64,000 nt of DNA from Burkholderiaceae bacterium (GTDB taxonomy: Bacteria > Pseudomonadota > Gammaproteobacteria > Burkholderiales > Burkholderiaceae_C). Numbering within the stretch: position 1 is the stretch's first letter; every line of letters starts with the position of its first letter. Below, in pieces: positions 10,195 through 25,411 of the stretch. A model generated the notes under the pieces. The model was not told the origin of the DNA. It did not search any database and worked only from the letters and a program-made list of their open reading frames with translations. The stretch spans positions 4,582 to 68,581 of the forward strand of contig JBGAMU010000011.1 of assembly GCA_044222685.1 (NCBI GenBank), read 5' to 3'. A program made the translations under genes and the position numbers.

Positions 10195-10268
10195 CGCGGA
10201 GCCGGCTTCGCCGGTCCGCTGGTGGCGCCCCCTCGAGGGGGCGGCGCCGAAGGCGCATCGGGGGTAGG

Positions 10269-10796: not shown

Positions 10797-12781
10797 GGTG
10801 CGGCACCCGCTGTGGTGGCGGGCGCGGCCGCCCGCTCGCGGCTGGTCGCCCGGTAGCGCCGGTCCGACGCGGCGAGCGCGCCACCCAGCGCCATCAGCAG
10901 GCAGCCGCCCCAGATCCAGTCGACGAACGGTTTGTAGTACACCCGCACGATCCAGGCGTTGCCGCCCACCGGCTCGCCGAGCGACACATAGAGGTCGCGC
11001 GTGAAGCCGGTATTGATGGCGGCTTCGGTCATCGGGTTCTGCTGCACGCGGTAGATGCGCTTCTCGGGGCGCATCGTCGCCACCGCCTTGCCATTGCGGG
11101 TGACTTCGATCAGGCCCTGCGCGCCGCCGTAGTTGGGGCCCTGGATCTCGCGCACGCCGCGATAGGTGAACACGTAGCCGGCGAGCTCGGTGGTGTCGCC
11201 CACGTCCATCTTGAGATCACGCTCGATCTCGTAGGTCTTGACCATGCTGACGCCGAAGGCGAAGGCGGCGACGCCCAGATGCGCGACCATCATGCCGATC
11301 ATCGTGCGCGGCAGCAGACGTGCACGCGCCAGTACACCGGCGCCGCCGGCGATGCCGGTGGGCTTGATGCGTTCCCACACGTCGGTGGCGATCGCGAGCA
11401 CGATCCACCAGCTCATCAGGAAACCGAGCGTGGCTATCGCCGTGATGCGACCCATCACCCAGCCGGTGGCAAAGGCGGCGACCACCGCGACCACGCCGGC
11501 CCAGCGCAGACGGCGCGCAAGGTCGGGCAGCGCGGCCTGGCGCCAGCGCGCCAGCGGGGCGATCGCCATCAGGAACACCACCGGCGCCATGATCGGCACG
11601 AACACCGATTCGAAGTACGGCGGGCCGACGGAGATCTTGCCCAGGCCGAGCGCGTCGAGCACCAGCGGGTACAGCGTGCCGAGCAGCACGGTGGCCATCG
11701 CGACCACCAGCATCACGTTGTTGCCGAGCAGCATCGACTCGCGCGAGACGAGCTCGAAGCGCGCACCGAGACCGACCTTGGGTGCCCGCCAGGCATACAG
11801 CGACAGCGAACCGCCGATCACCACCACCAGGAAGGCGAGGATGAACAGGCCGCGCTCGGGGTCGGTGGCGAACGCATGCACCGACGACAGCACGCCCGAG
11901 CGGACCAAGAAGGTGCCGAGCAGCGACAGCGAGAAGGCCATGATCGCCAACAGCACCGTCCACGACTTGAACGCACCGCGTTTCTCGGTCACGGCCAGCG
12001 AGTGGATCAGCGCGGTGCCGACGAGCCACGGCATGAACGAGGCGTTCTCCACCGGGTCCCAGAACCACCAGCCGCCCCAGCCGAGCTCGTAGTACGCCCA
12101 CCAGCTGCCGAGCGCGATGCCGATCGTGAGGAAGATCCAGGCCGCGGTGGTCCACGGCCGCGTCCAGCGCGCCCAGGTGGCGTCGAGGTTGCCGCCGATC
12201 AGCGCGGCGATGGCGAATGCGAAGGCGACCGAGAAGCCGACATAACCCATGTAGAGCATCGGCGGATGGATCACCATGCCCGGGTCCTGCAGCAGCGGGT
12301 TCAGGTCGCGCCCGTCGGGCGCCGCCGGCAGCAGCCGCTCGAACGGATTCGACGTGAGCAGCATGAACAGCAGGAAGCCCACGCTGACGAGTCCCATCAC
12401 CGCCAGGATGCGCGCGACCACCGGGGCCGGCAGATGGCGGCTGAACTGCGCAACCGCCAGCATCCACAGGTTCAGCATCAGCAGCCACAGCAGCAACGAG
12501 CCCTCATGGCCACCCCAGACGCCGGCGATGCGATAGGCCACCGGCAGTGCGGAGTTGGAGTTCGAGGCGACGTACAGCACCGAGAAGTCGTTGTAGATGA
12601 ACGCATACGTCAGGCAGCCGAAGGCAAAGATCACCAGCAGGCACTGCGTCTGCGCGGCCGGACGGGCGAGCGACATCCAGTCATGGCGGCCCTGTGCGGC
12701 GCCGGCGATCGGCAGCGTGCCCTGCACGCAGGCGATCGCGAGCGCCAGCAGCAGCGCGACCTGGCCCAGTTCGGGGATCAT
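10793..12781 (-). CDS. ccmF: haem lyase subunit CcmF
   Basis: 662-aa polytopic protein with the WWD motif [19 protein letters not shown]. Confidence 0.95.
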
Positions 12782-13242
12782 GGCTTGCCTCCGGTGGCGG
12801 CGTTGGAGGTCATGTTGCCGCCGGACTGCTGCGCGCGCTTGAGCGCCTCGCCGGCTTCGGGCGGCATGTAGTTCTCGTCGTGCTTGGCCAGCACCTCGCG
12901 GGCGACGAAGGTACCGTCGTCGCGCAGCTGGCCTTGGGCGACGACGCCTTTGCCTTCCTTGAACAGGTCGGGCAGGATGCCCTGGTACTGCACCGGAATC
13001 GTCTGCGCGGTGTCGGTCACGGCGAACTGCACCACGGTGCCGTCGCGTTTGACGCTGCCTTCCTTGACCAGGCCACCCAGGCGGAACGTGCGGCTCACCG
13101 GCGCCTCCTTGGCCACGATCTGCGACGGCGAATAGAAGAACACCAGGTTGCTCTGGAACGCGTTCAGCACCAGGCCCACCGCCACGCCGACGGCGCAGAC
13201 GATGCCGCCGATGATGGCCAGACGCTTGTGACGTGGTTTCAT
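12778..13242 (-). CDS. ccmE: haem chaperone CcmE
   Basis: [13 protein letters not shown]... membrane anchor and the haem-binding [12 protein letters not shown] motif. Confidence 0.95.
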
Positions 13243-13418
13243 GAAGAAGCCTCCTGAGATGCGGGATCGGCGGCCGCGCGCAAGGCCTGGCGCCGGTGGC
13301 GCGCGACGAGCCACGGTTCGGCGAACATCAGCGCGGCGGTGACGACGTAGGAGCCCCACACGTACAGGCCGTAGCCGCGCATCGAGAAGAAGTCGGACCA
13401 GCTCGACCAGTTCATCAT
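13239..13418 (-). CDS. ccmD: haem exporter protein CcmD
   Basis: 59-aa single-TM protein ([32 protein letters not shown]...) between ccmC and ccmE, with 4-nt overlaps on both sides. Confidence 0.8.
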
Positions 13419-14188
13419 CGCTCCTTGCGCGCGAGCGCCATGTCGCGCACCCAGTCGGTGTCGCGTTCGCGCTCGAGCGCGAGTGCCTGTGCGCGGGTGA
13501 ACACCGTCGCGAAGGCATAGGCCCAGAAGGCAAAGGTCATCAGCATCATGGCGATCAGCATCGTATGGGCCATTTTCGGTGCTGCCGTCATGCTGATGGT
13601 GGCACCTTGATGCAAGGTGTTCCACCAACGCACCGAGAAGTAAATGATCGGCACGTTGACGGCACCCACGATGGCCAGAACCGCGCCGGCCTTGTCGCCG
13701 CGCACCACGTCGTCGATCGACGCCACCAGCGCGATGTAGCCCAGATACAGGAACAGCAGGATGAGTTCCGACGTCAGCCGCGCGTCCCAGACCCACCAGG
13801 TGCCCCAGGTCGGCTTGCCCCAGAAGGCGCCGGTCCACAGCGCGAGGAAGGTGAACATCGCGCCGGTCGGTGCGATCGCACGGGCCAGCATCGAGGCCAT
13901 GCGCGCGTTGAACATCCAGCCGATCGCCGCCCAGAATGCCATCGCGAGGTACAGGATCATCGACATCCACGCCGCCGGCACGTGGATGAAGATGATGCGG
14001 TACGACTCGCCCTGCGTGGCGTCGGTCGGCGCGATGAAAAACCCTACATAAAGTCCGGCCAATGCGAGGCCGGCCGCGATGGTCCACAGCCACGGATTCA
14101 GCAGGCCGGCAAGCCAGTAGAAGCGCGATGGCGCGGCGAAGGTGAACCAGCGGATCGGGCGGTTCATCGGCTCTTCACTCCAGCGCAA
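13415..14188 (-). CDS. ccmC: haem exporter protein CcmC
   Basis: Polytopic protein with the WWD motif [14 protein letters not shown]. Confidence 0.9.
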
Positions 14189-14861
14189 TGCTCAACGCGA
14201 ACGAGGTGGCCAGCGGCGCCGTCAGCGCGGTGAGGATCAGCAGCGCGCCCAGCAGCGAGAAGTGCCCGGCGGTCGACACACCGCTGTCGACCGCGCTGAC
14301 CGCGCCCGCGCCGAAGATCAGCGCCGGCACCGCCAAGGGCAGGATCAGCAGGATCAGCAGCACGCCGGCGCTGCGCAGCCCGAGCGTCAGCGCGGCACCC
14401 ATGCCGCCGAGCAGGCTCAGGATCGGCGTGCCGAGCAGCAGCGACGCGACCAGCGTGCCGAGCGCGGCGCTGCTCATGTCGAGCAGCAGGCCGATCAACG
14501 GCGCCGCCAGCACCAGCGGCGCACCGGTCACCGTCCAGTGTGCGGCGGCCTTGGCGCTGGCCACGACGAAACCCGATTGTCCTGACAAGATCATTTGTTC
14601 GAGTGAACCGTCCGCATGATCGCCTGCATACAGGCTGGTGACCGACAGCATCGACGCCAGCAGTGCGCTCACCCAGACCACGCCGGCCGCGATCTGGCGC
14701 AGCGTCTGCGGCTCGGGCCCGACGCCCAGGGGGAACAGGCTGACGGCGACGATGAAGAACACCACCGGCAGCAAGGCCTCGACGCGGCGGCGCAGGGCCA
14801 ATCGCAGGTCGCGGACGTAGACAGCACTGAAGGCGGCTCCCATGGATGATCGCTCAAGCAA
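14175..14861 (-). CDS. ccmB: haem exporter permease CcmB
   Basis: 228-aa hydrophobic six-TM-like protein between ccmA and ccmC. Confidence 0.9.
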   Translation of the reverse strand: MLERSSMGAAFSAVYVRDLRLALRRRVEALLPVVFFIVAVSLFPLGVGPEPQTLRQIAAGVVWVSALLASMLSVTSLYAGDHADGSLEQMILSGQSGFVVASAKAAAHWTVTGAPLVLAAPLIGLLLDMSSAALGTLVASLLLGTPILSLLGGMGAALTLGLRSAGVLLILLILPLAVPALIFGAGAVSAVDSGVSTAGHFSLLGALLILTALTAPLATSFALSIALE

Positions 14862-14864
14862 GTA

Positions 14865-15542
14865 TCAGGCAAATGGATCTAGGTCAAATTCGGCGAGGGT
14901 CGGCGCCGCGTGGCCTGGCGACAGGTGGCTGGTCAGCAGCACGCTGCCGCCGCGCGCGAGATGATCGTGAAGCAGTTCGTTCACCGCCTGCACGCCGTCG
15001 CTATCGAGTGCGTCGTAGGGTTCGTCGAGGATCCAGATCGAGGCGCGTTGCTCGAGCGCCAGGCGGGCCAGCGTGGCGCGGCGCCGCTGGCCCTGCGACA
15101 GTGTGCGCACCAGCGCATCGCGGCGCGAACCCATGCCGATGCGTTCGAGCGCGGCGCGTATCGCCGGCGCGTCGCTCGGGCGCCCGTGCATGCGAGCCAG
15201 GAAGGTGAGCGACTCCGTCACGCTCAGGTCGTCCTTCAAGGCATTGGCGTGGCCGACATAGACGCGCTGCGCGGCGTAGCCGGCAGCCGCACGCACCGGC
15301 TTGTCACCCCAAAGAATTTTCCCGGACTCGGGAACCGCCAATCCGGCAGCCAGGCGCAGCAGGCTGGTCTTGCCGCGGCCGTTGCGCCCGCGCAGCCACG
15401 TGGCTTCGCCCGGGCGCACCGCCAGGTTGACGCCGCGGAACAACACGCGATTGCCGCGGCGGCAGGCGAGATCGGAGGCAGTGAGTGTCGGCAGCTCCCC
15501 GGCGTCAGAACTCGTAGCGCGCGCCGAGGGAGTAGTTGACAC
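14865..15542 (-). CDS. ccmA: cytochrome c biogenesis ATP-binding export protein CcmA
   Basis: Walker A GRNGRGKTSLLR, signature LSQGQRRR and Walker B IWILDEP. The start overlaps the end of the upstream barrel gene by 38 nt, so the start is uncertain. Confidence 0.9.
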   Translation of the reverse strand: MSTTPSARATSSDAGELPTLTASDLACRRGNRVLFRGVNLAVRPGEATWLRGRNGRGKTSLLRLAAGLAVPESGKILWGDKPVRAAAGYAAQRVYVGHANALKDDLSVTESLTFLARMHGRPSDAPAIRAALERIGMGSRRDALVRTLSQGQRRRATLARLALEQRASIWILDEPYDALDSDGVQAVNELLHDHLARGGSVLLTSHLSPGHAAPTLAEFDLDPFA

Positions 15543-18249
15543 GGTTGGACGATTCCTTCGTGGTGACGGTCAGTGCCGGATCGTTCGGGTCCGGCCCGAC
15601 CCGCGAGGCCTTGCCCAGCTCGTAGGTGACGCTGGACTCCAGCGCCCAGCGCTGCCAGCCGCGATAGGTCACGCGCAGCCCGGGCGTCCAGCGCTGGCTC
15701 GTGCTGCCCTGGGGCGTGCGATCCCGGTAGTACTGCAAGGACGGCTCGAGTTGCCAGACCCCGCCCACCACCGACGAGAGATTGTAAGAGAGCAGCAAAC
15801 CGTCCAGACTGACGCTCGAGATCGCGGTGGTCGAGAACACGTGGGTGTCGCGGGTCGAGTAGAGGTTCAGGCCGATCAGCTGCGCACTCAGCGAATAGAT
15901 GTTGCCCGACGCGGCGCGCTCGGTCTCGAATCCGGCGACGCCTGGCACCGGCGGAATGGCGCCGATGCTCGTCAGCTGCAGGCTGGCACCGACCTGCCAG
16001 GTCTTGTCCAGCGGCTTGGTCATGCCGATCTGGCCCTGTGTGATGTAGGGCGTGGTCAGCTTGATCTGCTCGCGCAGCGCTTCGACCGTGGTGGCAGGCG
16101 GTCCGTTGAGCTTGTCCTGGATGCGCGTGAAGATCTGGCCCGGGTTGGCGATGTCGGCGAAGATGAGGCCGTTGCCGAGTGCGAGCAGGCTCAGCGCACG
16201 CTTGTCGTACAGCGCATTGAAGACGGTGGCGTCCTCCATGATCATGGTCGCCTGCACGGTGGCGATGTTCAGGCCCTTGATCGCAATGTCGTAGTCGTAC
16301 TGCGAGAAGATCGACGCGCCGCCCTTGAAGTAACGCATCTCCAGGCCGACCGCGCGCCGGTCGACCTCGCTGTCGATCTTCTGCTCGATGCCGTACAGCG
16401 CCGCGCCGAAGTTCGGCAACAGGCCGTCGGCATCGATCGAGGCGCCGTAGAAATGGCGTTTCGAATCGAAGAACTTGTCGGTCGGCTGGCCGGCCACCGC
16501 GCCGAGCTTGATCTTGGGCCGCAGCAGGTAGTTGGCCGAAACCCCGTCGAAGCGGCCCATCACGCCGCCGCCGGTGGGCGACTGCCGGCCGAGGCGCACA
16601 CCGTAGCCGCCGCTGATCGACTTGTAGTCGAAGTACAGCGCCGACAGGCGGTTCTTGCTCTTGTCGGTGCGCTCGAGGTCGCTGGTGTACGAGTCGCGGA
16701 ACACGAAACGCATGTCGCGGTCGCCGTCGCGCTGTCGCCAGTTGAGGTCGACGTCGTTGAGCAGCTGGCTGGTCTTGTCGGTGCTGAACAGAGGGTCGCC
16801 GGAAATCTGCGGCAGGCCGGCGACCGGCGAGTCCTTGAAGTCCTGACTGCGGATCTGGCCGTTGCCGCCGAAGTAGTACATCGACACCGATCCCGTCACC
16901 GTGGTTTCGGTCGCCGGGCGCGGGCGGCCTTCGGTGGCCGCCGCCGGCGTGGCCGGCAGCGCAGCGAGTTCGCGTCGCACGCGATCGGTGCCGTCGCCCT
17001 GGGGATACAGCTGCAGGTAGGTTTCGAACTCGATGCGAGCACGAGCGACATCGCCCGAGCGTGCGCGCGCCACGCCGGCCATCTCTTGCGCGGTGCGGGT
17101 GTTGCGGTTCGGCGGCAGGTTGAGCAGTTCGTTGAGCGCCTCGAGCGCACCTGGGTAGTTCAGTTGCGTCATGGCCGCCTGCGCGGTCGCCAGCAGCGCA
17201 TTGGAACGTGTCTCCACTTCGGCCGCACTCAGCACGGGCGGCTCGGCTATTGCGGGCGCAGTGACCGCGGGTGCGGCAGGTGCGACCGGCGGCGGGACAG
17301 TCGGCGCAGGGACCACCGGCGCAGGTGTCGTGGACGGCGCTGGCACCGGCACAGGCACCGGCATCGGACTGGGCGCGGGCGCGGGACCCGGTGGTGGTAC
17401 CGGCGTCGGCGCTGCACGCGGCGCGGGAGCCGGTGGCTGTGCTGGAGCGGGAGCGGGTGCCGGGGCAGGCGCTGTGGCGACAACCGCCGGCGCGGCCGGC
17501 GCCGCTGCCACGATGGACGCCTGCGGGAACGCCGACAACTGCTGCAGCACCGCCTCGGCCTGCGTCCGGTTGGTGAAGTGGCCGAGCTGGATCTCGTAGC
17601 GGCGTCGACCGTCGACGATGCGCTCTGCGGTGAACACGTCGTAGTTCTGCAGCCCGCGCGGAATCAACGTCGACAACTGAACGTTCGGCTGGCTCGACGA
17701 CTGCAACACGATCACGAACCGGCGGTCGGTCTCGGGCAGCGTCGCGGGTGTGGACTGCGTCGGCGCGTCGCTGGCCGCCACCGCGGGCGCAGGTGCGCGC
17801 CGAACCGGTGCGCCTTGGGCAGCGGTGACCGCGGCGCCGGCGCCTTCGATGACGACTTCGATGCTGCGATTGCCAGAGCCCGCGCGTACCGTCAGACGGG
17901 TCTGGTCGGCGGTGCGCAGCACGATCTTGCGGGCCCGCTCGCCGCGCTCGATCTCGTCGGCGATCGCCAGCTCGGGCAGGCCCTGCCGGGCGCCGAGGCG
18001 CAGCGTCTGCGTGGCGCGGATGTCGGCGTTCGTCTGCGTGACCAGCGAATAGAAGATCAGCGTCAGGTCGCCCGATCGGGTGGAGACCGCACGCTGGAAC
18101 TGCACCTCGGTGGCGAAGCGCAGTTGCAGGACGGCGTTGCTGCCTTCGCGGCGGACGTCAAACTGATCGATGGTCTGCGCATGGACTGCGCTGTTGCAGG
18201 CGGCCAGGACGGCCATCGTGACGATGCTGGGTCGGAGGAATGGATTCAC
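15505..18249 (-). CDS. outer-membrane beta-barrel protein with SPOR-like, Pro/Ala-rich and TPR N-terminal region (candidate porin of a porin-cytochrome complex)
   Basis: Signal peptide MNPFLRPSIVTMAVLAACNSAVHA. SPOR-like segment (RYEIQLGHFTNRTQAEAVLQQL) and a ~90-aa P/A linker. The ~465 C-terminal residues show alternating-hydrophobicity strands and end ...YSLGARYEF. Confidence 0.75.
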   Translation of the reverse strand: MNPFLRPSIVTMAVLAACNSAVHAQTIDQFDVRREGSNAVLQLRFATEVQFQRAVSTRSGDLTLIFYSLVTQTNADIRATQTLRLGARQGLPELAIADEIERGERARKIVLRTADQTRLTVRAGSGNRSIEVVIEGAGAAVTAAQGAPVRRAPAPAVAASDAPTQSTPATLPETDRRFVIVLQSSSQPNVQLSTLIPRGLQNYDVFTAERIVDGRRRYEIQLGHFTNRTQAEAVLQQLSAFPQASIVAAAPAAPAVVATAPAPAPAPAPAQPPAPAPRAAPTPVPPPGPAPAPSPMPVPVPVPAPSTTPAPVVPAPTVPPPVAPAAPAVTAPAIAEPPVLSAAEVETRSNALLATAQAAMTQLNYPGALEALNELLNLPPNRNTRTAQEMAGVARARSGDVARARIEFETYLQLYPQGDGTDRVRRELAALPATPAAATEGRPRPATETTVTGSVSMYYFGGNGQIRSQDFKDSPVAGLPQISGDPLFSTDKTSQLLNDVDLNWRQRDGDRDMRFVFRDSYTSDLERTDKSKNRLSALYFDYKSISGGYGVRLGRQSPTGGGVMGRFDGVSANYLLRPKIKLGAVAGQPTDKFFDSKRHFYGASIDADGLLPNFGAALYGIEQKIDSEVDRRAVGLEMRYFKGGASIFSQYDYDIAIKGLNIATVQATMIMEDATVFNALYDKRALSLLALGNGLIFADIANPGQIFTRIQDKLNGPPATTVEALREQIKLTTPYITQGQIGMTKPLDKTWQVGASLQLTSIGAIPPVPGVAGFETERAASGNIYSLSAQLIGLNLYSTRDTHVFSTTAISSVSLDGLLLSYNLSSVVGGVWQLEPSLQYYRDRTPQGSTSQRWTPGLRVTYRGWQRWALESSVTYELGKASRVGPDPNDPALTVTTKESSNRVNYSLGARYEF
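17236..17508 (-). repeat. Pro/Ala-rich low-complexity linker coding region
   Basis: APAAPAVVATAPAPAPAPAPAQPPAPAP...PVPVPVPAP...; GC-rich short-period DNA repeats. Confidence 0.8.
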
Positions 18250-18331
18250 TGATCTTTTCGTTCGAATGAGTGGATGCGTTCAGAAAGAGGTCCCGACGAT
18301 CGCGGGGCCGACCGCGCGGGCGATGGCATGG

Positions 18332-20833
18332 TCACCAGCTGCGATAGGGGGTTCCTCGGCTGCCGAGCGGGCGATGGCAACCGGATTGCGAGCAATCCGT
18401 GACGCCGGTGGATCTCTCGTGTGTCAGCGACTTCCTCTCCATGCTGCCGAGGAACGACTGACCGCTCGTGTGGCATCCCTTGCACCAGCCGGCACCGTTG
18501 CCCTGGCTGTTGTTGTGGTTCATCGTCATGGAGCTCCACGACGTGGTGTTGCTATGGCAGGCGTTGCAGTCCATCGCCGCGCCGTTGAGCAGTTGCACCT
18601 CGGGGATGTGGTTGCTCGGCTTGGCCAGCGCACCCTGCGTGCCCTGTGACACGTAGCTGCCGTTGTGGCACAGCTTGCACTGCGTGGCCGTCACCACCGT
18701 GTGGTTCATCGTCACCGCGGTCGAGAAGCTGGCTTGCGAGCGGTGGCATGAATCACACTTCGACACGCCGGTCGTCACCGGGATGTGGGTGCTCGGCTTG
18801 CCGCGCGCCGTGGCACCGTTGTGGCAGGTGTCGCAGGTGCCGGTGCCCACCGCATTGGCGGGCGAGTGGGCGAAGGTCACCGTGGCCCAGCTGGTGGTCG
18901 ACCGGTGGCAGCTCTCGCAGTTGCCGGTGATGGTGGCGTGCGTCGCGTTGTTGGGTTTGCCGACGGCGTTGAGGAAGGCGCCGGTGTGGCAGTTCGCGCA
19001 GTTGGTGCTGATCGAATAGTTCGCGTGCAGCCGACCGTTGGCCCAGCTCGTGAAGCTGCCCTTGTGGCACGCGTCGCAATTGGCTGCTGCAGTGATGGCC
19101 ACCGTCTGGTAAGGGATGTGATTCGTCGGCCTGCCGTCGGCCGGCGGGTAGCTGCCGGTGTGGCAGCTCGCGCACGCCGCGGTGACCACCATCTGCGTGT
19201 GGTTCCACTTCGTCGGTGTCCACAGCTGCGGGCTCACGTTGTGGCAGCTGAAGCAGTTGACGGTGGTGGGGAAGTGGTTCGCCGGTTTCGGCGTCGCCGC
19301 TCCGCCCGCGCCGTGGCACGACGTGCAGTTGGTCGCCGCGTTGAAGGTGCTGTGGTCGGTGCGGGCGCCGGCCCATGTGGCCGTGCTCTTGTGGCAGCTC
19401 TCGCAGTTGCCGGTCACGGTGGCGTGCGTGGCGTTGTTCGGCTTGCCGACGGCATTGAGATAGGCGCCGCTATGGCAGGTGACGCAGCCGGTGGCGACCG
19501 AGAAGTTGGTGTGGAAGCGCCCGTTGGCCCAGGTCGCGAAGCTGCCCTTGTGGCAGGCGTCGCAATTGGCGGCGGCCGACACCGCGACGGTCTGGTACGG
19601 CACGTGGTTGGTCGGCCGGCCGTCGGCCGGCGGGAAGCCGCCGGGGTGGGAGGTCGCGCAGGCCGCCGGGAAGGTGAACTGGGTGTGGTTCCACTTGGTC
19701 GGGGTCCAGCCGGCCGGGCTGACGGTGTGGCAGCCGAAGCAGTTGGCAGTGGTGGGGAAGTGCGCCGCCGGCTTCGGCGTCGCGGTGCCGCCCGCGGTGT
19801 GGCAGGTGGTGCAATTGGTTGCGGCGGTGAACGCGCTATGGTCGACCCTGGCCCCGCCCCAGGTGCTGGTGGTCTTGTGGCAGCTCTCGCAGTTTCCTGT
19901 CACGGTGGCATGCGTGGCGTTGTTGGGCTTGCCGACCGCGTTGAGGAACGTGCCGCTGTGGCAGGCGGCGCAGCCCGTCGTCACCGCGAAATTTGCGTGG
20001 AAGCGCCCGTTGGCCCAGGTGCTGAAGCTTCCCTTGTGGCAGGCGTCGCAGTTGGCGGCCGCCGCGACCGTGACGGTCTGATAGGGGACGTGGTTCGTCG
20101 GCCGGCCGTCGGCCGGCGGATACGCGCCGCTGTGACAGGTGGCGCATTGCGCCGTCACCACCATCTGCGTGTGATTCCACGCCGAAGGCCGCCAACTGGT
20201 GAACGTCTTGTGGCAGCTGTCGCAGGACTGGCCGGCATTGGTCGGCATGTGCTGCGCCGGCTTGCCGGTGGCGCGGCCTGCGCCGTGGCAGGTGGCGCAG
20301 GTGCCGGCGACCACGCCAACGTGGTCGAAGCCGGCCGCCGGCGACCAGGCGCTGGTGCGGTGACACGCATCGCACGACGCGCTGGTCTGGATGTGGTTGG
20401 ACGACTTGCCGCCAGCCGTGGAACCGTTGTGGCAGCTCTGGCAGCTGCCCGGCAGCACGCCGGCGTGGGTGAACCTGGCGCCGACATAGGTCTTCGTGTT
20501 GTGGCACGAATCGCAGGTCAGCTGGGCCGGGAAGGTCACGTGGTTCATCGGCTTCACGACGTTGCCTCGCGAGAACCGCAGGCCCGACACGTGGCACGAG
20601 GCACAGTCTCTCGGCGTGCCCTTGAAGATGCCGTTCAGGTGGCAGGACTCGCAGCGCGTCTGCACGTGCATGCCGGTCAGTGCGAAGCCGGTCTTCAGGT
20701 GGTCGAAGTCCTTGCCGCCCGACATCTGCGCCATGCTGGGCGGGGCCAGCAGCGCCATGGCGAGCCACAGTGCCGCGCCGAATCGAGCCGAGGCCGTTCG
20801 CCACATCCATCCCAGTTGAAACAGCTGCTTCAT
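18332..20833 (-). CDS. multihaem c-type cytochrome, 27 CxxCH + 1 CxxxxCH + 1 degenerate CxxSH
   Basis: I counted the motifs in the 881-aa track translation. Start set at MKQLFQLGWMWRTASARFGAALWLAMALLAPPSMAQ (signal peptide), overlapping the stop of the upstream cytochrome (ATGA). Ser/Thr/Asn/Ala-rich. Confidence 0.9.
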   Translation of the reverse strand: MKQLFQLGWMWRTASARFGAALWLAMALLAPPSMAQMSGGKDFDHLKTGFALTGMHVQTRCESCHLNGIFKGTPRDCASCHVSGLRFSRGNVVKPMNHVTFPAQLTCDSCHNTKTYVGARFTHAGVLPGSCQSCHNGSTAGGKSSNHIQTSASCDACHRTSAWSPAAGFDHVGVVAGTCATCHGAGRATGKPAQHMPTNAGQSCDSCHKTFTSWRPSAWNHTQMVVTAQCATCHSGAYPPADGRPTNHVPYQTVTVAAAANCDACHKGSFSTWANGRFHANFAVTTGCAACHSGTFLNAVGKPNNATHATVTGNCESCHKTTSTWGGARVDHSAFTAATNCTTCHTAGGTATPKPAAHFPTTANCFGCHTVSPAGWTPTKWNHTQFTFPAACATSHPGGFPPADGRPTNHVPYQTVAVSAAANCDACHKGSFATWANGRFHTNFSVATGCVTCHSGAYLNAVGKPNNATHATVTGNCESCHKSTATWAGARTDHSTFNAATNCTSCHGAGGAATPKPANHFPTTVNCFSCHNVSPQLWTPTKWNHTQMVVTAACASCHTGSYPPADGRPTNHIPYQTVAITAAANCDACHKGSFTSWANGRLHANYSISTNCANCHTGAFLNAVGKPNNATHATITGNCESCHRSTTSWATVTFAHSPANAVGTGTCDTCHNGATARGKPSTHIPVTTGVSKCDSCHRSQASFSTAVTMNHTVVTATQCKLCHNGSYVSQGTQGALAKPSNHIPEVQLLNGAAMDCNACHSNTTSWSSMTMNHNNSQGNGAGWCKGCHTSGQSFLGSMERKSLTHERSTGVTDCSQSGCHRPLGSRGTPYRSW
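18878..20176 (-). repeat. about 2.7 tandem copies of a ~161-aa (~485-nt) five-haem module inside the 27-haem cytochrome gene
   Basis: WNHTQ(M/F)..., C..(C/S)H..(Y/F)PPADGRPTNH(V/I)PYQTV...NCDACHKGSF..WANGR.H..., NAVGKPNNATHAT(V/I)TGNCESCH recur at aa 268, 429 and 591 of the track translation. Confidence 0.85.
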
Positions 20834-22746
20834 GGTCCCCACCCTGTTGGCTGGCCGCCTGCCAGGCGGCTCGAATGACCCAGGGCCCATCGACCGTCGT
20901 CGGGGCCGGGTTCGTCTCTGATACCGACACGCGTCTTCACGCGCTTCCAGTTCTCGGTCACGTGGCACTGCTCGCACGCCGGGCCGAAGGCACCGTCGTG
21001 CGTGTCGTCGCGGCGGTGGCAGGCAATGCAGTTGGTGCCGGTGTCGGCGGCAGCCTTGCCCTTGGGGGCCGGCCGCGTGTGGCAGGCCTCGCAGGCCACC
21101 TTGCGGTGCGCGCCGTCGAGCACGTATCTCGCGCGGCGGGTGTGGTCGTAGTCCCAGATGCCCCAGGCGCGCGCGTTGTGGCAGCTCTCGCAGGCGGTGC
21201 CGAACTTGAGCTTGTGCTTGTCGTCCTTCTCGTGGCAGCTGAAGCAGTCACGCGGCGCGTCCTTGTAGCGCGCGGTCTTATGGCAGTCGGCGCACTTCAC
21301 CGGAACGTGTTTGCCCACCAGCGGGAAGCGCGTGGCTGCGTGGTCAAAGCGCGGCACCTTCCAGTCGCGGTCGTTATGGCAGCTCTCGCACTTGGGGCCG
21401 AGCTGGCCCTCGTGCTTGTCGTCCTTCTTGTGGCACGACAGGCAGTCCCTGGGCGTATCGCGATAGTGCTTGAGGTCCTTGTGGCAGTCCTTGCACTGCA
21501 CCTTCTTCGCCGCATGCGCGTTGCGCAGCTGGAACTTGGTCTTGTCGTGGTCGAAGCGCTTCACGTCCTTCCAGTCGCGCTCGCTGTGGCACGACTCGCA
21601 CTTCGTGCCGAGCGTCGCCTCGTGCTTGTCGTCCTTCTTGTGGCAGCCGATGCAGTCCTTCGGCGCCTCCTTGTAGTTCGTGCTCTTGTGGCAGTCGCCG
21701 CACTTGGTGTCGATGTGCTTGCCCAGCAGCGGGAACTTGGTCTTGTCGTGGTCGAACTTGCCTTTTTCCTTCCAGCTGCTCTCGACGTGGCAGGCCGCGC
21801 AGTCGCGACCCAGGCTGCCCTTGTGGCCCTTGGCGGAGTCGTCGTCCTTCTTGTGGCAGTCGATGCAGGCGGTGCCGACCTTGTCCTTGTAGAGGTGCCC
21901 GGTGTGGCAGTCGGCGCACTTGGTCTGCTTGTGCTTGCCGCGCAGCAGGTACTTGGTGTCGGTGTCGTGGTTGAAGGTGCTCGGCTTCCACGCCTTCACA
22001 CCGTGGCAGCTGTCGCACTTGTCGCCGTACAAGCCCTTGTGGCCCTTGTTGCCGTCGTCATCCTTCTTGTGGCAGCCGATGCAGGTGCGCGGCGCGGCCT
22101 TGTAGTCGTCGCCCTTCTTGTGGCAGTCGACGCACTTGGCGTCGGCGTGCTTGCCCTTCAGCGCGAAGCGCGTCTTGTCATGGTCGAACTTGGCCTTCTC
22201 TTTCCAGTCGTTGTCGGTGTGGCAGTCGGCGCACTTGGTGCCGAGCGATCCCTTGTGCACGTCGTCCTTCCTGTGGCACGCGTTGCAGTCCGACGGCGCC
22301 TCCCAGTACTTCTTCTTCGGCTCGTGGCACTTCTCGCAGGCCACCTGCTTGTGCTTGCCGCGCAGCGCGTAGTCAGACTCGTCGTGATCGAACTTCTGCT
22401 TGTCGAAGACGACGATGCGCGCCGCGCGGCCCTTGTGGTCGGTGTGGCAGCTGCGACAGGTCGCCTGCGGCTTCTGTCGCCCGTGGTAGCCGGTGCGCTC
22501 ACGCATGTCGACGCCCACTTCCTTGTGGCAGTCCATGCACAGCCGGTCCTGCGCGTTCTTGTCGAAGCGCACGTGGCACTTCGAGCAGTCCTCTTCCCAC
22601 TTGGCGTGCCCCTGGATCAGCTCGCCGGGGCGCAGCACGGACTCGATGTTCTGCGCGGCCGCAGGAACGACCGCGAAGAGCGCGAGCAGCAACGTCCACA
22701 GCCAGCGTAGGCAGGATAGTTGTGGAGTGGCGCGCCACGGTGTCAA
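20830..22746 (-). CDS. multihaem c-type cytochrome, 24 CxxCH arranged as eight c7/c3-like triads
   Basis: Repeating FDH(D/A)xT.F.L.GKH...C..CH...C..CHKKDDKH...C..CH units; Lys-rich. No in-frame ATG precedes the signal peptide (WLWTLLLALFAVVPAAAQ). I propose the TTG at 22746, which follows GAGGA. Confidence 0.9.
   Translation of the reverse strand: MTPWRATPQLSCLRWLWTLLLALFAVVPAAAQNIESVLRPGELIQGHAKWEEDCSKCHVRFDKNAQDRLCMDCHKEVGVDMRERTGYHGRQKPQATCRSCHTDHKGRAARIVVFDKQKFDHDESDYALRGKHKQVACEKCHEPKKKYWEAPSDCNACHRKDDVHKGSLGTKCADCHTDNDWKEKAKFDHDKTRFALKGKHADAKCVDCHKKGDDYKAAPRTCIGCHKKDDDGNKGHKGLYGDKCDSCHGVKAWKPSTFNHDTDTKYLLRGKHKQTKCADCHTGHLYKDKVGTACIDCHKKDDDSAKGHKGSLGRDCAACHVESSWKEKGKFDHDKTKFPLLGKHIDTKCGDCHKSTNYKEAPKDCIGCHKKDDKHEATLGTKCESCHSERDWKDVKRFDHDKTKFQLRNAHAAKKVQCKDCHKDLKHYRDTPRDCLSCHKKDDKHEGQLGPKCESCHNDRDWKVPRFDHAATRFPLVGKHVPVKCADCHKTARYKDAPRDCFSCHEKDDKHKLKFGTACESCHNARAWGIWDYDHTRRARYVLDGAHRKVACEACHTRPAPKGKAAADTGTNCIACHRRDDTHDGAFGPACEQCHVTENWKRVKTRVGIRDEPGPDDGRWALGHSSRLAGGQPTGWGP
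20962..22587 (-). repeat. array of eight c7-like triheme modules (protein-level repeat)
   Basis: 24 CxxCH motifs with regular spacing; FDHDKT.F.L.GKH and CHKKDDKH recur. Confidence 0.8.
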
Positions 22747-22763
22747 TCCAATCCTCGGAGTCG

Positions 22764-23849
22764 TCAGTAGGCGTGCACAGCGAACACGTGGACGACGGCG
22801 CTGATGACGAGAAGGTAGATGAACGGCAGATGCGCCATGTGCCAGAGCGCGAAGACACGCTCGTACGCCGTGTACTGCGCGACGCGCACCACGGCATTCA
22901 GGTAGTGATCCACCAGGCGCCTGGCGCGCCGCCGGCGGCGCCGAAGATCGTGCGGCGACCACTTGTGGCGCACGGCCATCTGCTCCAGCGGCTTGCGCAG
23001 CTCGATCACGCATCGCAGATAGGTGAACCATTGCTGCACCGGCAGCCAGGTCACTTGGCGCAGGTGCGTGACCCAGGTGGAGTCGGCGTGCAGTTCGCGT
23101 TGCTCGAAGGCAAGCAGGCGAGCTTCGACCTTGGGCGCGAAGTGAAGGCGCGACCGCGCCGCGTTCTCGACGAAGCCCGCATTCTCGCGCAGTGTGTGCA
23201 GCGTCGTGCGTTCACCGTTCAGTCCACGGTGGACACGCACATAGATGAATCGGCCGATCACCCCGCTGGCCACCACGATGCCCATGCTGTACAGCGCGAC
23301 GCCTGCGTTGAGAGACCCGATCTTGAACGTCGAGTGCACAAGGATCAGCCACGGCCCGGTGATGCCCAGGAAGAGATGGAACCAGAACCACCACTTCACC
23401 TTGCCGATGCCGCGCATGAAGCCGACGTACTTGCGAAGCGGGTAGACGAACAGCGCGAGCATCATCGAGCCGCCGGTCACACCGATCCAGTAATTGGTGT
23501 CGCCATTCACCTTCACGAGACCAAGCTGCGTGATCTCCCAGGCGGCGAACACCAGGGCGCCGAGCAGCAGGTACAGCAACAGGTCCTCGCGCGCTGGGCT
23601 GCTGTCGGCCGACTTGCGTGGGGGAACCGTGGCGTCCAGCTCGGCGTCGGTCTTGTTTGGCTCGAGTTGCGCTACAGCCGGCTTCGCTTGCGGCGCCACG
23701 AGTTCAGCTTGCGGCGTCGTGCCTGCCCGGCGGCGACGGCCACGCGGAAACACGGTCTGATCCAGCGGCTCAGCGCTGGCATCGACGTTCGGATCGATCA
23801 GGGTGGCGGTGTTCATGCGGGGCGAATCAACGCGCCGGTCGGGGTTCAA
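22764..23849 (-). CDS. inner-membrane protein with paired transmembrane histidines (candidate dihaem-b electron carrier)
   Basis: About five hydrophobic helices. FHLFLGITGPWLILVHS and WHMAHLPFIYLLVISAVVHVFAVH carry His residues about 14 positions apart. Start is TTG at 23849 or ATG at 23816. Confidence 0.7.
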   Translation of the reverse strand: MNPDRRVDSPRMNTATLIDPNVDASAEPLDQTVFPRGRRRRAGTTPQAELVAPQAKPAVAQLEPNKTDAELDATVPPRKSADSSPAREDLLLYLLLGALVFAAWEITQLGLVKVNGDTNYWIGVTGGSMMLALFVYPLRKYVGFMRGIGKVKWWFWFHLFLGITGPWLILVHSTFKIGSLNAGVALYSMGIVVASGVIGRFIYVRVHRGLNGERTTLHTLRENAGFVENAARSRLHFAPKVEARLLAFEQRELHADSTWVTHLRQVTWLPVQQWFTYLRCVIELRKPLEQMAVRHKWSPHDLRRRRRRARRLVDHYLNAVVRVAQYTAYERVFALWHMAHLPFIYLLVISAVVHVFAVHAY

Positions 23850-25269: not shown

Positions 25270-25411
25270 GCCATTGCTTAAGGTCAAGTAAGGCTTGGCG
25301 TCATGTGACCGTTTGTTTGCGGGGTTTCGACCGGCGCGGTGGGGTCTCTGCGTACCCGCGTGGACTGAAGCTGACAAGAATGACAGCCGTCAATACAGCG
25401 CCCTCCCGATC

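What the first reader, a model, noticed from the sequence alone, without database searches (positions are those of the whole stretch)
15505..23849. Four-gene porin-cytochrome-type conduit with 51 canonical haem sites
The gene order is: inner-membrane protein, 24-haem Lys-rich cytochrome of c7-type triads (periplasmic-wire type), 27-haem Ser/Thr/Asn-rich repeat cytochrome, then a 914-aa outer-membrane barrel. The two cytochrome genes overlap (ATGA), which suggests coupled translation. As far as I recall, this order matches the 'PCC3' clusters predicted by comparative genomics in neutrophilic Fe(II)-oxidising Gallionellaceae. Those clusters have never been characterised biochemically. Two cytochromes this large could bridge the periplasm and extend beyond the outer membrane.
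Basis: partly seen in the sequence, partly recalled or inferred. Interest (0 to 1): 0.85.

Follow-up and report, generated by a model that had tools for sequence, protein, structure and literature searches.

The report
PCC3-type porin–multihaem cytochrome gene cluster
This is a well-preserved copy, in an uncultured Burkholderiales bacterium, of the already-described but never biochemically tested "PCC3" gene cluster, which probably builds a haem-packed electrical wire from the inner membrane to the cell surface.

Summary
Four co-directional minus-strand genes encode an inner-membrane protein, a 24-CxxCH Lys/Asp-rich cytochrome, a 27-CxxCH Ala/Thr/Gly/Ser/Asn-rich repeat cytochrome and a 914-aa outer-membrane protein. 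The two cytochrome genes overlap as ATGA.

The PCC3 interpretation is supported. Every published PCC3 feature I could test is met, including the Wx3Hx13H/SGxxG motifs of the inner-membrane protein. PCC3 is not specific to Gallionellaceae: it was first described also in Leptothrix and is reported in Aquabacterium, relatives of this organism.

The same cluster occurs in 38 of 49 Burkholderiales species loci and in three more distant loci, one of them from Sulfuricaulis (Gammaproteobacteria).

Additions from this work:
- The first cytochrome always has 24 haems. The second ranges from 14 to 64, mostly in six-haem steps.
- Only the C-terminal half of the "barrel" protein is a barrel (22 strands). 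The N-terminal half is a β-sandwich, a SPOR domain, a Pro/Ala linker and TPR helices.
- The cluster runs straight into a complete ccm haem-attachment operon and a membrane-anchored Fe–S flavoprotein. Both linkages are conserved.

The function and the direction of electron flow remain untested, and published Sideroxydans data argue against Fe(II) oxidation. Verdict: a new member of a known, predicted kind.

The parts
22764..23816 (-). PCC3 inner-membrane protein (IMP), 350 aa. It has a disordered Arg-rich N-terminus, five TM helices and a ~120-aa cytoplasmic helical insert between TM4 and TM5. Conserved residues are H147/H161 (TM3), S184-G188 (TM4) and H329/H343 (TM5).
   Evidence: Motifs read from the translation and invariant in 60 homologues. 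AF2 model pLDDT 79 with helices 74-98, 106-123, 140-162, 169-198 and 288-349. No Pfam or NCBIfam family. No PDB relative by sequence or fold. 2124 clusters at 50 % identity in the representative library.
20830..22746 (-). Periplasmic-type 24-haem cytochrome c, 638 aa with a signal peptide (…AAA|QN). It consists of eight c7-like trihaem modules and has 26.6 aa per haem. It is rich in Lys and Asp.
   Evidence: 24 CxxCH with the repeating spacing 16-17 / 18-22 / 33; 51 His. Pfam Cytochrome_C7 E 1.7e-27 in 7 stretches. TTG start with GAGGA Shine-Dalgarno. Exactly 24 haems in ~40 Burkholderiales loci and in three remote loci at 43-54 % identity.
18332..20833 (-). Extracellular-type 27-haem cytochrome c, 833 aa with an SPase-I signal (…SMA|Q) and no lipobox. 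It is rich in Ala, Thr, Gly, Ser and Asn and has 30.9 aa per haem. Its start overlaps the stop of the 24-haem gene (ATGA).
   Evidence: Pfam Cytochrome_C7 E 1.6e-41 in 15 stretches. DmsE and OmcA/MtrC NCBIfam hits fall below their cut-offs.
18905..20358 (-). Tandem array of three 486-bp (162-aa) six-haem modules inside the 27-haem gene.
   Evidence: TRF period 486, 2.6-3.0 copies, 73-80 % matches. Protein modules aligned. The closest relative, L001, has four modules and 34 haems. Counts of 22, 28, 34, 40 and 46 dominate among relatives.
19646..19660 (-). Degenerate haem site CATSH (Cys to Ser) at the first position of the second six-haem module.
   Evidence: The equivalent sites of the other two modules, and of all four modules in L001, are CxxCH.
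18374..18394 (-). CX4CH motif (CSQSGCH) near the C-terminus of the 27-haem protein. It is a possible 28th haem site.
   Evidence: Conserved in L001.
15505..18249 (-). Outer-membrane protein, 914 aa, with a signal peptide (…VHA|Q) and a C-terminal Phe. It is modular (sub-parts listed below).
   Evidence: AF2 mean pLDDT 82.8. 139 homologues in the word-indexed search, from Burkholderiales where named. The GTG start matches the homologue consensus.
17809..18174 (-). N-terminal β-sandwich domain of the outer-membrane protein (aa 26-147). It is homologous to a separate ~160-aa protein in the three remote PCC3 clusters, so a fifth component is fused here.
   Evidence: AF2 strands 27-134. hhalign probability 94.5 %, E 7.5e-8 over 109 columns against the L050, L051 and L052 small proteins. 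Pairwise BLAST E 0.001. No Pfam hit.
17506..17718 (-). SPOR-like peptidoglycan-binding domain (aa 178-248). It is followed by a disordered ~90-aa Pro/Ala-rich linker (nt 17230-17502).
   Evidence: Pfam SPOR 22.0 bits against a cut-off of 21. Homologues are annotated as SPOR. AF2 gives a β-β-β-α-β fold, and the linker has pLDDT below 50. SPOR aligns with the Sulfuricaulis porin.
16960..17226 (-). Short TPR-like helical domain (aa 342-430).
   Evidence: Pfam TPR_9 and TPR_16 hits, below their cut-offs. Five AF2 helices with pLDDT of 94 or more. 46 % identical to remote homologues.
15508..16908 (-). 22-strand β-barrel (aa 448-914) with one long helix-containing loop (aa 686-734).
   Evidence: AF2 DSSP strand list, pLDDT mostly above 90. 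Foldseek finds only generic barrels with TM-score normalised to the target of 0.49 or less and ~10 % identity. No PDB sequence relative. 31-32 % identical (E 1e-63 to 1e-65) to the barrel in the L050 and L052 clusters.
8393..15542 (-). Complete System I cytochrome c maturation operon directly downstream: ccmA (the ORF overlaps the porin stop by 38 nt), ccmB, ccmC, (ccmD not resolved), ccmE, ccmF, ccmG, ccmH and ccmI.
   Evidence: Pfam hits. Gaps between genes of -38, 3 and -14 nt. A ccm gene follows the porin in 24 of 29 loci where the downstream gene is visible. In the Sulfuricaulis locus and L052, ccm genes lie on both sides of the cluster.
7075..8364 (-). Membrane-anchored Fe-S flavoprotein, 429 aa. 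It has an N-terminal TM helix, a six-Cys ferredoxin-like domain and a TrxR/YpdA-like FAD/NAD(P)H fold with two Rossmann motifs. It is the last gene of the co-directional array, and a terminator-like hairpin follows at 7051-7037.
   Evidence: Pfam and NCBIfam. Sequence features. Terminator scan. 54-63 % identical homologues lie divergent from the IMP in L050-L052. A homologue lies within 10 kb of the IMP in 15 of 49 Burkholderiales loci: it follows the porin directly in 5 and lies upstream of the IMP in 10.

Best explanation
The region is a PCC3-type porin-cytochrome cluster in a ~67 % GC Burkholderiales genome. It is embedded in a ~16.8-kb co-directional array of about 14 genes. The most likely mechanism is a single haem chain spanning the cell envelope, in four steps.

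1. A five-helix inner-membrane protein, inferred to hold two bis-His b-type haems through its two Hx13H pairs, carries electrons across the cytoplasmic membrane.
2. It exchanges electrons with a rigid 24-haem periplasmic cytochrome made of eight c7-like trihaem modules. This protein is long enough to cross the periplasm. The estimate of ~24 nm is scaled from the 12-haem GSU1996 protein and rests on my recollection of that structure.
3. The periplasmic wire meets a 27- or 28-haem, small-residue-rich repeat cytochrome at or inside a 22-strand outer-membrane barrel. The barrel protein is tethered to peptidoglycan by its SPOR domain and carries TPR and β-sandwich modules that could dock the cytochromes.
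4. The second cytochrome projects to the cell surface.

The adjoining ccm operon supplies the 51-52 haem attachments.

Shown here: the genes, motifs, haem counts, domain architecture, barrel model and conserved synteny. Inferred: haem b binding, protein contacts, surface exposure and electron flow. The direction of flow and the substrate are not determined.
For: - Haem counts and the ATGA overlap are confirmed.
- The IMP motifs are those published for PCC3, and the model has five TM helices.
- The first cytochrome has a trihaem module spacing pattern and Cytochrome_C7 hits.
- The barrel model has 22 strands at high confidence.
- All four genes are syntenic in 38 of 49 Burkholderiales species loci. 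The same order occurs in L050 (Sulfuricaulis limicola) and L052, with 52-54 % identity for the 24-haem protein and 31-32 % for the barrel; L051 has the first three genes but its contig ends before a barrel.
- The first cytochrome invariably has 24 haems, whereas the second has 14-64 and changes in six-haem steps. This fits a fixed-distance periplasmic span plus a free-ended outer segment.
- The haem numbers equal those of the reference clusters: ES-1 24/28 and L. cholodnii 24/22 with a 22-strand porin prediction.
- A ccm gene or the flavoprotein gene is the next gene after the porin in 29 of 29 informative loci.
Against: - No experiment exists for any PCC3 system. It is still called 'functionally unverified' in 2025.
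- The IMP has no detectable relative among solved structures and no Ferric_reduct Pfam hit. Haem b binding therefore rests on motifs alone.
- The 27-haem protein has an ordinary SPase-I signal and no lipobox, and no export route for it is evident in the operon.
- In ES-1 the extracellular MHC was not detected in proteomes.
- One long helix-bearing loop (aa 686-734) could occlude the barrel. I could not inspect the model coordinates.
Confidence: 0.75

Rival explanations
1. The conduit works outward. It is a split NOX/ferric-reductase-like machine. The membrane-anchored Fe-S flavoprotein (7075-8364) oxidises cytoplasmic NAD(P)H and docks on the cytoplasmic helical domain of the IMP. Electrons then leave through the two b haems and the 51-52 c haems to an extracellular acceptor such as Fe(III), Mn(III/IV), humics or O2. 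The quinone pool is bypassed.
For: - A flavoprotein homologue (54-63 % identical in the remote loci) lies next to PCC3 in all three remote loci, including Sulfuricaulis. It also lies within 10 kb of the IMP in 15 of 49 Burkholderiales loci, in three different positions relative to ccm.
- It has an N-terminal TM anchor, Fe-S and FAD/NAD(P)H motifs, and no signal peptide.
- The IMP has a conserved ~120-aa Arg-rich cytoplasmic domain and is not a NapC/CymA-type quinol dehydrogenase.
- Inference: outward electron movement is favoured both by redox potential and by the membrane potential. Uphill import to NAD(P)+ is not.
- The hosts (Aquabacterium, Ideonella, Rubrivivax, Hydrogenophaga) are mostly organotrophs.
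Against: - The case rests on gene neighbourhood only.
- No IMP-flavoprotein fusion was found among ten long IMP homologues.
- In this window the flavoprotein gene lies ~14 kb downstream of the IMP gene, beyond ccm.
- Its substrate is unknown. The best family hit, YpdA, scores 156 bits against a cut-off of 340.
- PCC3 is enriched in Fe(II) oxidisers.
Confidence: 0.3
2. The conduit works inward, as a Fe(II) or other metal/mineral oxidase. This is the role usually proposed for PCC3. Electrons from extracellular Fe(II), Mn(II) or minerals enter through the surface cytochrome and reach the quinone pool through the IMP.
For: - PCC3 is common in Sideroxydans, Leptothrix and other iron oxidisers and in iron-rich habitats.
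- The IMP of one CL21 copy was up-regulated when cells oxidised iron.
- In this window the cluster adjoins a multicopper-oxidase/SCO1/cytochrome c island, which could be a metal-oxidation locus.
Against: - Both ES-1 PCC3 clusters were down-regulated on Fe(II) compared with thiosulfate.
- The ES-1 extracellular MHC was undetected on magnetite, while MtoAB was induced.
- Most hosts found here are not known iron oxidisers.
- There is no evidence that the IMP reacts with quinones.
- The conserved NAD(P)H-type flavoprotein does not fit a downhill route to the quinone pool.
Confidence: 0.25
3. The outer membrane is not crossed. Both cytochromes stay in the periplasm as an electron store or buffer (a capacitor). 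The SPOR/TPR/barrel protein is only an envelope anchor or an unrelated channel.
For: - Neither cytochrome has a lipobox, and no dedicated secretion gene lies in the operon.
- The extracellular assignment in the literature is a predictor output.
- The variable haem number is also compatible with a storage role.
- A capacitor function is discussed by Hoover et al..
Against: - The barrel gene is strictly syntenic with the two cytochromes across two proteobacterial classes.
- A 22-strand barrel has a Cα diameter of about 40 Å by the standard barrel-geometry formula, which is wide enough for a thin haem wire. This is an inference.
- A small-residue-rich repeat cytochrome whose length is unconstrained fits a free extracellular end better.
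Confidence: 0.12
4. The IMP and the Fe-S flavoprotein are not the electron entry or exit point. They are dedicated maturation helpers, for example keeping haem or apocytochrome thiols reduced, for very large multihaem cytochromes. They would work with the adjacent Ccm system.
For: - The cluster is tightly nested with ccm genes in this window, in 24 of 29 informative Burkholderiales loci and in two of the three remote loci, L050 and L052.
- The flavoprotein is thioredoxin-reductase-like.
- He et al. report related five-TM IMPs next to multihaem cytochromes that have no porin.
Against: - Five loci carry PCC3 plus the flavoprotein with no ccm genes between or after them.
- A two-Hx13H transmembrane pattern is typical of electron-transfer di-haem proteins.
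- A standard CcmG/CcmH thiol pathway is already encoded.
Confidence: 0.1
5. The barrel is a polysaccharide or other export porin of the BcsC, PgaA or AlgE type that merely happens to lie beside cytochrome genes.
For: - A TPR-plus-barrel architecture superficially recalls BcsC and PgaA.
- AlgE and BcsC appear among the Foldseek hits.
Against: - Those hits are generic: TM-score normalised to the target of 0.22-0.40, 8-10 % identity, ranked with porins and ushers.
- BcsC, PgaA and AlgE have 16-18 strands (from my own knowledge) against 22 here.
- There is no Pfam or PDB sequence match.
- Homologues are flanked by multihaem cytochromes in every locus examined, and no polysaccharide synthesis genes are adjacent.
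Confidence: 0.02

Closest known systems
PCC3 clusters of Sideroxydans lithotrophicus ES-1 (Slit_1446-1449) and Leptothrix cholodnii SP-6 (He et al. 2017, PMC5566968; Hoover et al. 2023, PMC10734462)
   Same: - Same four genes in the same order.
- The IMP carries the published Wx3Hx13H ×2 and SGxxG motifs.
- The periplasmic MHC has 24 haems at ~27 aa per haem in eight repeats.
- The second MHC is rich in small residues and repetitive. It has 28 motifs in ES-1, 22 in L. cholodnii, and 27 plus 1 degenerate here.
- The porin is predicted with 22 strands in L. cholodnii.
   Different: - The host is an uncultured ~67 % GC Burkholderiales bacterium, not a known iron oxidiser.
- One haem site is degenerate.
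- Four features are not mentioned in He 2017 and, except for the flavoprotein, which I did not search for there, not in Hoover 2023: the SPOR/TPR/β-sandwich periplasmic half of the porin protein, fusion of a fifth small component, direct continuation into ccmA-I, and a conserved Fe-S flavoprotein.
- Sequence identity to the reference proteins could not be measured here.
MtrCAB / MtoAB / PioAB porin-cytochrome complexes
   Same: The logic is the same: a periplasmic multihaem cytochrome, an outer-membrane barrel and, in MtrCAB, a surface multihaem cytochrome form a trans-outer-membrane haem chain. The aa-per-haem ratio is low, as in MtrA.
   Different: - There is no MtrB/PioB family hit, and MtrB is absent from the top 50 fold matches.
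- The barrel has 22 strands, not 26.
- The DmsE/MtrA and OmcA/MtrC models score below their cut-offs.
- The cytochromes have 24 and 27 haems, not 10 and 10.
- The surface cytochrome is not a lipoprotein.
- The inner-membrane partner is a novel five-TM protein, not CymA/NapC.
Geobacter c7-type polymer cytochromes (GSU1996 / GSU0592 family, 'nanowire' trihaem domains)
   Same: The 24-haem protein is a tandem array of c7-like trihaem modules (Pfam PF14522; the FDHxxT…C..CH pattern). The 27-haem protein hits TIGR04257 nanowire_3heme at 54 bits against a cut-off of 40.
   Different: - It has eight modules rather than four.
- There is no significant sequence match to any solved structure.
- It is encoded with a porin and an IMP.
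Ferric-reductase domain (FRD) proteins: NOX, FRE, STEAP, MsrQ/YedZ
   Same: Two His pairs spaced by 13 residues sit on two transmembrane helices. Together with the neighbouring FAD/NAD(P)H flavoprotein, this gives a NOX-like division of labour. This is an inference.
   Different: - There is no Pfam Ferric_reduct hit and no Foldseek match at E of 0.001 or better to any solved structure.
- It has five TM helices and a large cytoplasmic helical insert.
- The dehydrogenase is a separate polypeptide that carries an Fe-S domain.

Membership tests
PCC3 (He et al. 2017) | [quoted passage not shown] | tested here: met
   Minus-strand genes 23816-15505 with gaps of 17, -4 and 82 nt. The order is the same as Slit_1446-1449.
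PCC3 (He et al. 2017) | IMP of ~300 aa with five TM helices, SGxxG on TM4 and Wx3Hx13H on TM3 and TM5 | tested here: met
   W143-H147-H161, S184-G188 and W325-H329-H343. These residues are invariant in 60 homologues. AF2 gives five TM helices.
PCC3 (He et al. 2017; Hoover et al. 2023) | Periplasmic MHC with 21, 24 or 27 haem motifs, a low aa:haem ratio (~26-27) and internal repeats | tested here: met
   24 CxxCH in 638 aa gives 26.6 aa per haem. There are eight trihaem modules.
PCC3 (He et al. 2017) | Second MHC rich in Thr, Ser, Ala and Gly, built of repeats that each contain at least one haem site, and predicted extracellular | tested here: inconclusive
   Composition and repeats are met: A, T, G and S sum to 43.8 %, and there are three 162-aa six-haem modules. 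Extracellular location cannot be tested in silico here. The protein has an SPase-I signal and no lipobox.
PCC3 (He et al. 2017) | Large outer-membrane β-barrel ('porin') encoded next to the MHCs | tested here: met
   AF2 gives a 22-strand barrel at aa 448-914 with pLDDT mostly above 90 and a C-terminal Phe.
PCC3 (He et al. 2017) | Sequence homology of the four proteins to the reference clusters (S. lithotrophicus ES-1, L. cholodnii SP-6) | not testable with these tools
   The reference sequences could not be retrieved. The single genome-contig scan returned only closer Burkholderiales. Indirect support: homologous clusters in Aquabacterium spp., a genus listed as PCC3-bearing by He et al.; identical haem numbers; and homologues reaching Sulfuricaulis.
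MtrAB / MtoAB / PioAB | MtrB/PioB-family 26-strand porin | tested here: not met
   No Pfam hit for the barrel. 22 strands. MtrB is not among the top 50 Foldseek matches.
MtrAB / MtoAB / PioAB | DmsE/MtrA-family decahaem periplasmic cytochrome | tested here: not met
   TIGR03508 scores 21 bits (24-haem protein) and 107 bits (27-haem protein) against a cut-off of 192.
OmcA/MtrC outer-surface decahaem lipoproteins | TIGR03507 family membership and a lipoprotein signal | tested here: not met
   57.8 bits against a cut-off of 209. There is no Cys in the signal peptide of the 27-haem protein.
Ferric reductase transmembrane domain (PF01794) proteins | Detectable sequence or fold similarity to the FRD domain, with two bis-His haem b sites | tested here: not met
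   No Pfam family for the IMP at E of 0.01 or better. No PDB hit by profile at E of 10 or better. No Foldseek hit at E of 0.001 or better. Only the Hx13H spacing is shared.
Exopolysaccharide TPR-porins (BcsC, PgaA, AlgK/AlgE) | Specific homology of the barrel, and a genomic context of polysaccharide synthesis genes | tested here: not met
   Foldseek hits to AlgE and BcsC have TM-score normalised to the target of 0.22-0.40 and 8-10 % identity, no better than those to generic porins. The context is cytochromes plus ccm in all loci.

The most novel reading that the evidence does not exclude
PCC3 may be more than a four-gene porin-cytochrome module wired to the quinone pool. It may be a larger, conserved machine of six or more parts. 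A membrane-anchored Fe-S flavoprotein plus the five-TM di-haem IMP would form a split, NOX-like transmembrane NAD(P)H dehydrogenase. This would inject cytoplasmic electrons directly into a fixed-length 24-haem periplasmic wire and a length-variable surface wire (22 + 6n haems). The outer-membrane unit would be pinned to peptidoglycan (β-sandwich + SPOR + TPR + 22-strand barrel), and the system would have co-evolved with its own ccm operon. That would make it a quinone-independent extracellular electron-export system, widespread in organotrophic Beta- and Gammaproteobacteria, rather than an iron oxidase.
Probability: 0.25. Interest if true: 0.8.

Novelty: new member of a known kind. Interest (0 to 1): 0.45.

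Why it matters
PCC3 is one of the largest predicted extracellular electron-transfer systems, and it is common in metagenomes: the IMP alone has more than 2000 clusters at 50 % identity. Yet no component has been purified and no phenotype assigned.

This copy adds little as an occurrence. PCC3 is already reported in the related Leptothrix and Aquabacterium. The comparative results do sharpen what to test:
- An invariant 24-haem periplasmic span against a modular 22 + 6n surface wire.
- A peptidoglycan-tethered 22-strand barrel with a fused fifth component.
- Conserved linkage to ccm and to a cytoplasmic-face Fe-S flavoprotein.

The flavoprotein link suggests that electrons may come from NAD(P)H and flow outward. 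That would reinterpret a proposed 'iron oxidase', and it fits the published down-regulation on Fe(II).

Tried and rejected
- **Retrieving the window's own contig.** Looking up the 100 %-identical NCBI porin protein found no record.
- **Reaching the reference clusters.** Its two peptide patterns were too specific to reach Sideroxydans or Leptothrix. Direct alignment with reference PCC3 proteins was therefore impossible. The supplement of He et al. holds repeat tables but no sequences.
- **Naming distant IMP homologues.** Cluster-member look-up of ten distant representatives gave almost no organism names: one Gammaproteobacteria and one Nitrospinota.
- **A gene-fusion link between IMP and flavoprotein.** I tested ten unusually long IMP homologues (449-687 aa). 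Their extensions are TPR, SPOR or unassigned, not flavoprotein. This line of support was dropped.
- **The IMP as a ferric-reductase-domain fold.** No Pfam hit, no PDB sequence hit and no significant Foldseek hit. The FRD label is kept only as an analogy of motif spacing.
- **PDB relatives of the two cytochromes and the barrel.** None is significant. The best E-values are 0.0036 to MtrA (6R2Q chain A, identified from my recollection; the table labels it differently) and 0.0042 to 3OUQ, a cytochrome c family protein.
- **A lipoprotein reading of the porin signal (LAAC).** Rejected, because the Cys is not conserved and the consensus is AxA|Q.
- **Promoter scan.** Uninformative: one hit against 1.2 expected by chance.
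- **Model coordinates.** These are not exposed, so pore occlusion by loop 686-734 and the His-His distances in the IMP could not be measured.

Full report
**1. The observation**

The window is ~67 % GC throughout. On the minus strand, four long ORFs occupy 23849-15505. Their translations contain 0, 24, 27 and 0 CxxCH motifs. These 51 motifs are 51 of the 54 found in all six frames of the 64-kb window. Shuffling the residues of each cytochrome gives a mean of ~0.3 motifs and a maximum of 3-4, so this is not chance.

Start-codon inspection, together with the homologue consensus, gives these genes:
- IMP, ATG 23816 to TGA 22764, 350 aa.
- 24-haem protein, TTG 22746 with a GAGGA Shine-Dalgarno sequence, to 20830, 638 aa.
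- 27-haem protein, ATG 20833 to 18332, 833 aa.
- Outer-membrane protein, GTG 18249 to 15505, 914 aa.

The ATG of the 27-haem gene and the TGA of the 24-haem gene share TG, so the ATGA overlap is real.

**2. Anatomy of the parts**

*24-haem protein.* Its sites repeat with the spacing 16-17 / 18-22 / 33 residues, which gives eight trihaem modules of the form FDHxxT…C..CH. It has 51 His, enough for bis-His ligation. Pfam Cytochrome_C7 matches at E 1.7e-27.

*27-haem protein.* It has three tandem 162-aa modules of six haems each (486-bp DNA repeat). In the second module the first site has decayed to CATSH. A CX4CH motif lies near the C-terminus. Neither cytochrome has a significant relative among solved structures.

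*IMP.* It has no Pfam or NCBIfam family. It carries W143-x3-H147-x13-H161, S184-G-x-x-G188 and W325-x3-H329-x13-H343, all invariant across 60 homologues. AF2 (pLDDT 79) gives five transmembrane helices and a ~120-aa Arg-rich helical insert between TM4 and TM5. By the positive-inside rule this insert is cytoplasmic; that is an inference. Foldseek and a profile search find no solved relative.

*914-aa protein.* It is not simply a barrel. AF2 (mean pLDDT 82.8) shows, in order:
- a signal peptide;
- a β-sandwich (aa 27-134);
- a SPOR-like domain (178-248; Pfam 22 bits against a cut-off of 21);
- a disordered ~90-aa Pro/Ala linker;
- five TPR-like helices (342-430);
- a 22-strand barrel (448-913) with one long helix-bearing loop (686-734) and a C-terminal Phe.

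Foldseek against the PDB returns only generic barrels: FimD, MOMP, porins, AlgE, BcsC and TonB-dependent receptors. Their TM-scores normalised to the target are 0.49 or less, with ~10 % identity. MtrB is not in the top 50.

**3. Surroundings**

The porin stop overlaps an ORF for ccmA. A complete System I maturation operon follows on the same strand with tiny or negative gaps: ccmA, B, C, E, F, G, H and I (ccmD was not resolved).

Next comes a 429-aa protein with an N-terminal TM helix, a six-Cys ferredoxin-like domain and a TrxR/YpdA-like FAD/NAD(P)H fold. A terminator-like hairpin follows it. The four genes therefore head a ~16.8-kb co-directional array of about 14 genes.

Upstream and on the opposite strand lie:
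- an OmpR-type regulator;
- a 2262-aa DUF11 protein;
- three multicopper-oxidase-like genes;
- a subtilase;
- SCO1/SenC;
- a monohaem cytochrome c protein.

Further on there is a T2SS/MSHA-like secretion set.

**4. Related loci**

Homologues of the porin and the IMP are abundant in metagenomes. The IMP family has 2124 clusters at 50 % identity.

A scan of one genome per species returned 49 loci, all Burkholderiales: Aquabacterium, Ideonella, Rubrivivax, Vitreoscilla, Hydrogenophaga aromaticivorans D2P1 and many MAGs. The findings were:
- 38 loci contain all four genes in the same order. The rest are cut by contig ends.
- In the 29 loci where the gene after the porin is visible, it is a ccm gene in 24 and the Fe-S flavoprotein in 5. 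It is never anything else.
- In 10 loci the flavoprotein lies upstream of the IMP on the opposite strand.
- The first cytochrome has exactly 24 CxxCH in ~40 loci. The second ranges from 14 to 64, and 22, 28, 34, 40 and 46 are the commonest values, a step of six haems.
- The closest relative (L001, IMP 97 % identical) has four six-haem modules and 34 haems, against three modules here.

A profile of distant IMPs led to three further loci. One is the complete genome of Sulfuricaulis limicola (Gammaproteobacteria). Each shows:
- an IMP 37-43 % identical;
- a 24-haem protein 43-54 % identical;
- a second MHC of 24-55 haems (L051 has a further 39-haem ORF at the contig end);
- a separate ~160-aa protein;
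- the flavoprotein, 54-63 % identical, divergent from the IMP.

In L050 and L052 a SPOR/TPR/barrel protein follows (barrel 31-32 % identical, E ~1e-64) and ccm genes lie on both sides. The L051 contig ends before any barrel gene.

The ~160-aa protein is homologous to the N-terminal β-sandwich of the window's porin protein (hhalign 94.5 %, E 7.5e-8). A fifth component is therefore fused here.

**5. Mechanism**

The best-supported reading is a trans-envelope haem chain, as set out in the best explanation.

The contrast between an invariant 24-haem protein and a length-variable second cytochrome is new evidence for the published topology. The 24-haem protein is conserved at 52-54 % identity between the window and Sulfuricaulis, which belongs to another proteobacterial class. 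A fixed span, roughly the width of the periplasm, fits the invariant protein. A free end fits the variable one.

By standard barrel geometry, a 22-strand barrel has a Cα diameter of ~40 Å. That is wide enough for a thin cytochrome if loop 686-734 does not plug it.

SPOR and the Pro/Ala linker would tether the barrel to peptidoglycan. TPR and the β-sandwich are candidate docking modules.

The direction of flow is open:
- Against Fe(II) oxidation: both ES-1 PCC3 clusters fell on Fe(II) (PMC8788666), and the ES-1 surface MHC was not detected on magnetite.
- For an outward, NAD(P)H-fed route: the conserved, cytoplasm-facing, membrane-anchored Fe-S flavoprotein and the conserved cytoplasmic domain of the IMP. 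This rests on neighbourhood only, and no fusion was found.
- A maturation-helper role for the IMP and flavoprotein, and a purely periplasmic capacitor, cannot be excluded.

**6. Comparison with what is known**

All testable defining features of PCC3 (He et al. 2017) are met. The haem numbers equal those of Slit_1447/1448 (24/28) and L. cholodnii (24/22, with a 22-strand porin prediction). PCC3 has also been reported across the Sphaerotilus-Leptothrix group and in Aquabacterium.

Direct sequence comparison with the reference proteins could not be run.

The cluster is not an Mtr/Mto/Pio system and not an exopolysaccharide porin. The IMP is not a detectable FRD-family member.

**7. Novelty and verdict**

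- The taxonomic scope is wider than Gallionellaceae.
- The cluster is larger than four genes.
- An iron-oxidation role is not supported.

In the held literature PCC3 is still described as functionally unverified.

As an occurrence this is a new member of a known, predicted kind, so interest is moderate. Some comparative details are, as far as my term searches of two of the PCC3 papers show (He 2017 and Hoover 2023), not described:
- linkage to ccm;
- the SPOR and TPR modules of the porin protein.

I did not check those two papers for the other details: the flavoprotein linkage (searched in He 2017 only, where it is absent), the invariance at 24 haems, the six-haem modular steps and the fused fifth component.

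These details give concrete, testable hypotheses about how PCC3 is built and which way it runs.

Noticed in passing
window 25295-42377 (+ strand): A co-directional cluster: an OmpR-type response regulator, a 2262-aa DUF11-repeat protein, three multicopper-oxidase-like genes (435, 489 and 663 aa; the last has cadherin/Big_9 domains), a 176-aa ORF, a subtilase S8, SCO1/SenC and a 619-aa monohaem cytochrome c protein. It may be a secreted copper-oxidase or metal-oxidation island. The DUF11 protein also lies upstream of PCC3 in L001, L002 and L022, and the first multicopper oxidase in L001 and L002.
   Followed up: partly
window 44105-53526 (- strand): A type II secretion / MSHA-pilus-like gene set: an N-methyl pseudopilin, a secretin with TPR and STN N-terminal domains (44620-46662), a T2SSE ATPase, T2SSF, a T2SSG pseudopilin and an SLT transglycosylase. 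It is a candidate export route for the surface cytochrome or the copper oxidases. No link was tested.
   Followed up: no
window 24199-25377 (- strand): A patatin-like phospholipase gene lies 383 nt upstream of the IMP on the same strand. A homologue sits in the same position in seven related loci (L001, L002, L013, L014, L022, L038, L049). Its role is unknown.
   Followed up: partly
window 19646-19660: One of the 28 expected haem sites of the second cytochrome reads CATSH, with the Ser codon TCC at 19649-19651. The same position is CxxCH in the other modules and in the closest relative. It is either a real loss of one haem in the chain or a sequencing or assembly error in a 486-bp repeat.
   Followed up: partly
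L001-L049, second cytochrome gene: Two sequence types of the variable cytochrome exist. One is similar to the window's protein (43-76 % identity, mostly 22 + 6n haems). The other is only 25-31 % identical, with roughly 27-64 haems where the gene is complete, and is paired with a more divergent porin (barrel 30-35 % identical). L011 and L051 carry two large variable cytochromes.
   Followed up: partly
P0269, P0278, P0282, P0330, P0338, P0344 (distant IMP homologues): Some IMP homologues are 450-690 aa long, with N-terminal extensions that contain TPR or SPOR domains or nothing recognisable. Peptidoglycan-binding or TPR modules can thus sit on the inner-membrane component instead of the porin.
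   Followed up: partly
L050 18006-18623: In Sulfuricaulis limicola an SLT lytic transglycosylase gene lies directly after the PCC3 porin. The window also has an SLT gene (52795-53526) beside its secretion cluster. Local peptidoglycan remodelling may be needed to thread such long cytochromes.
   Followed up: no
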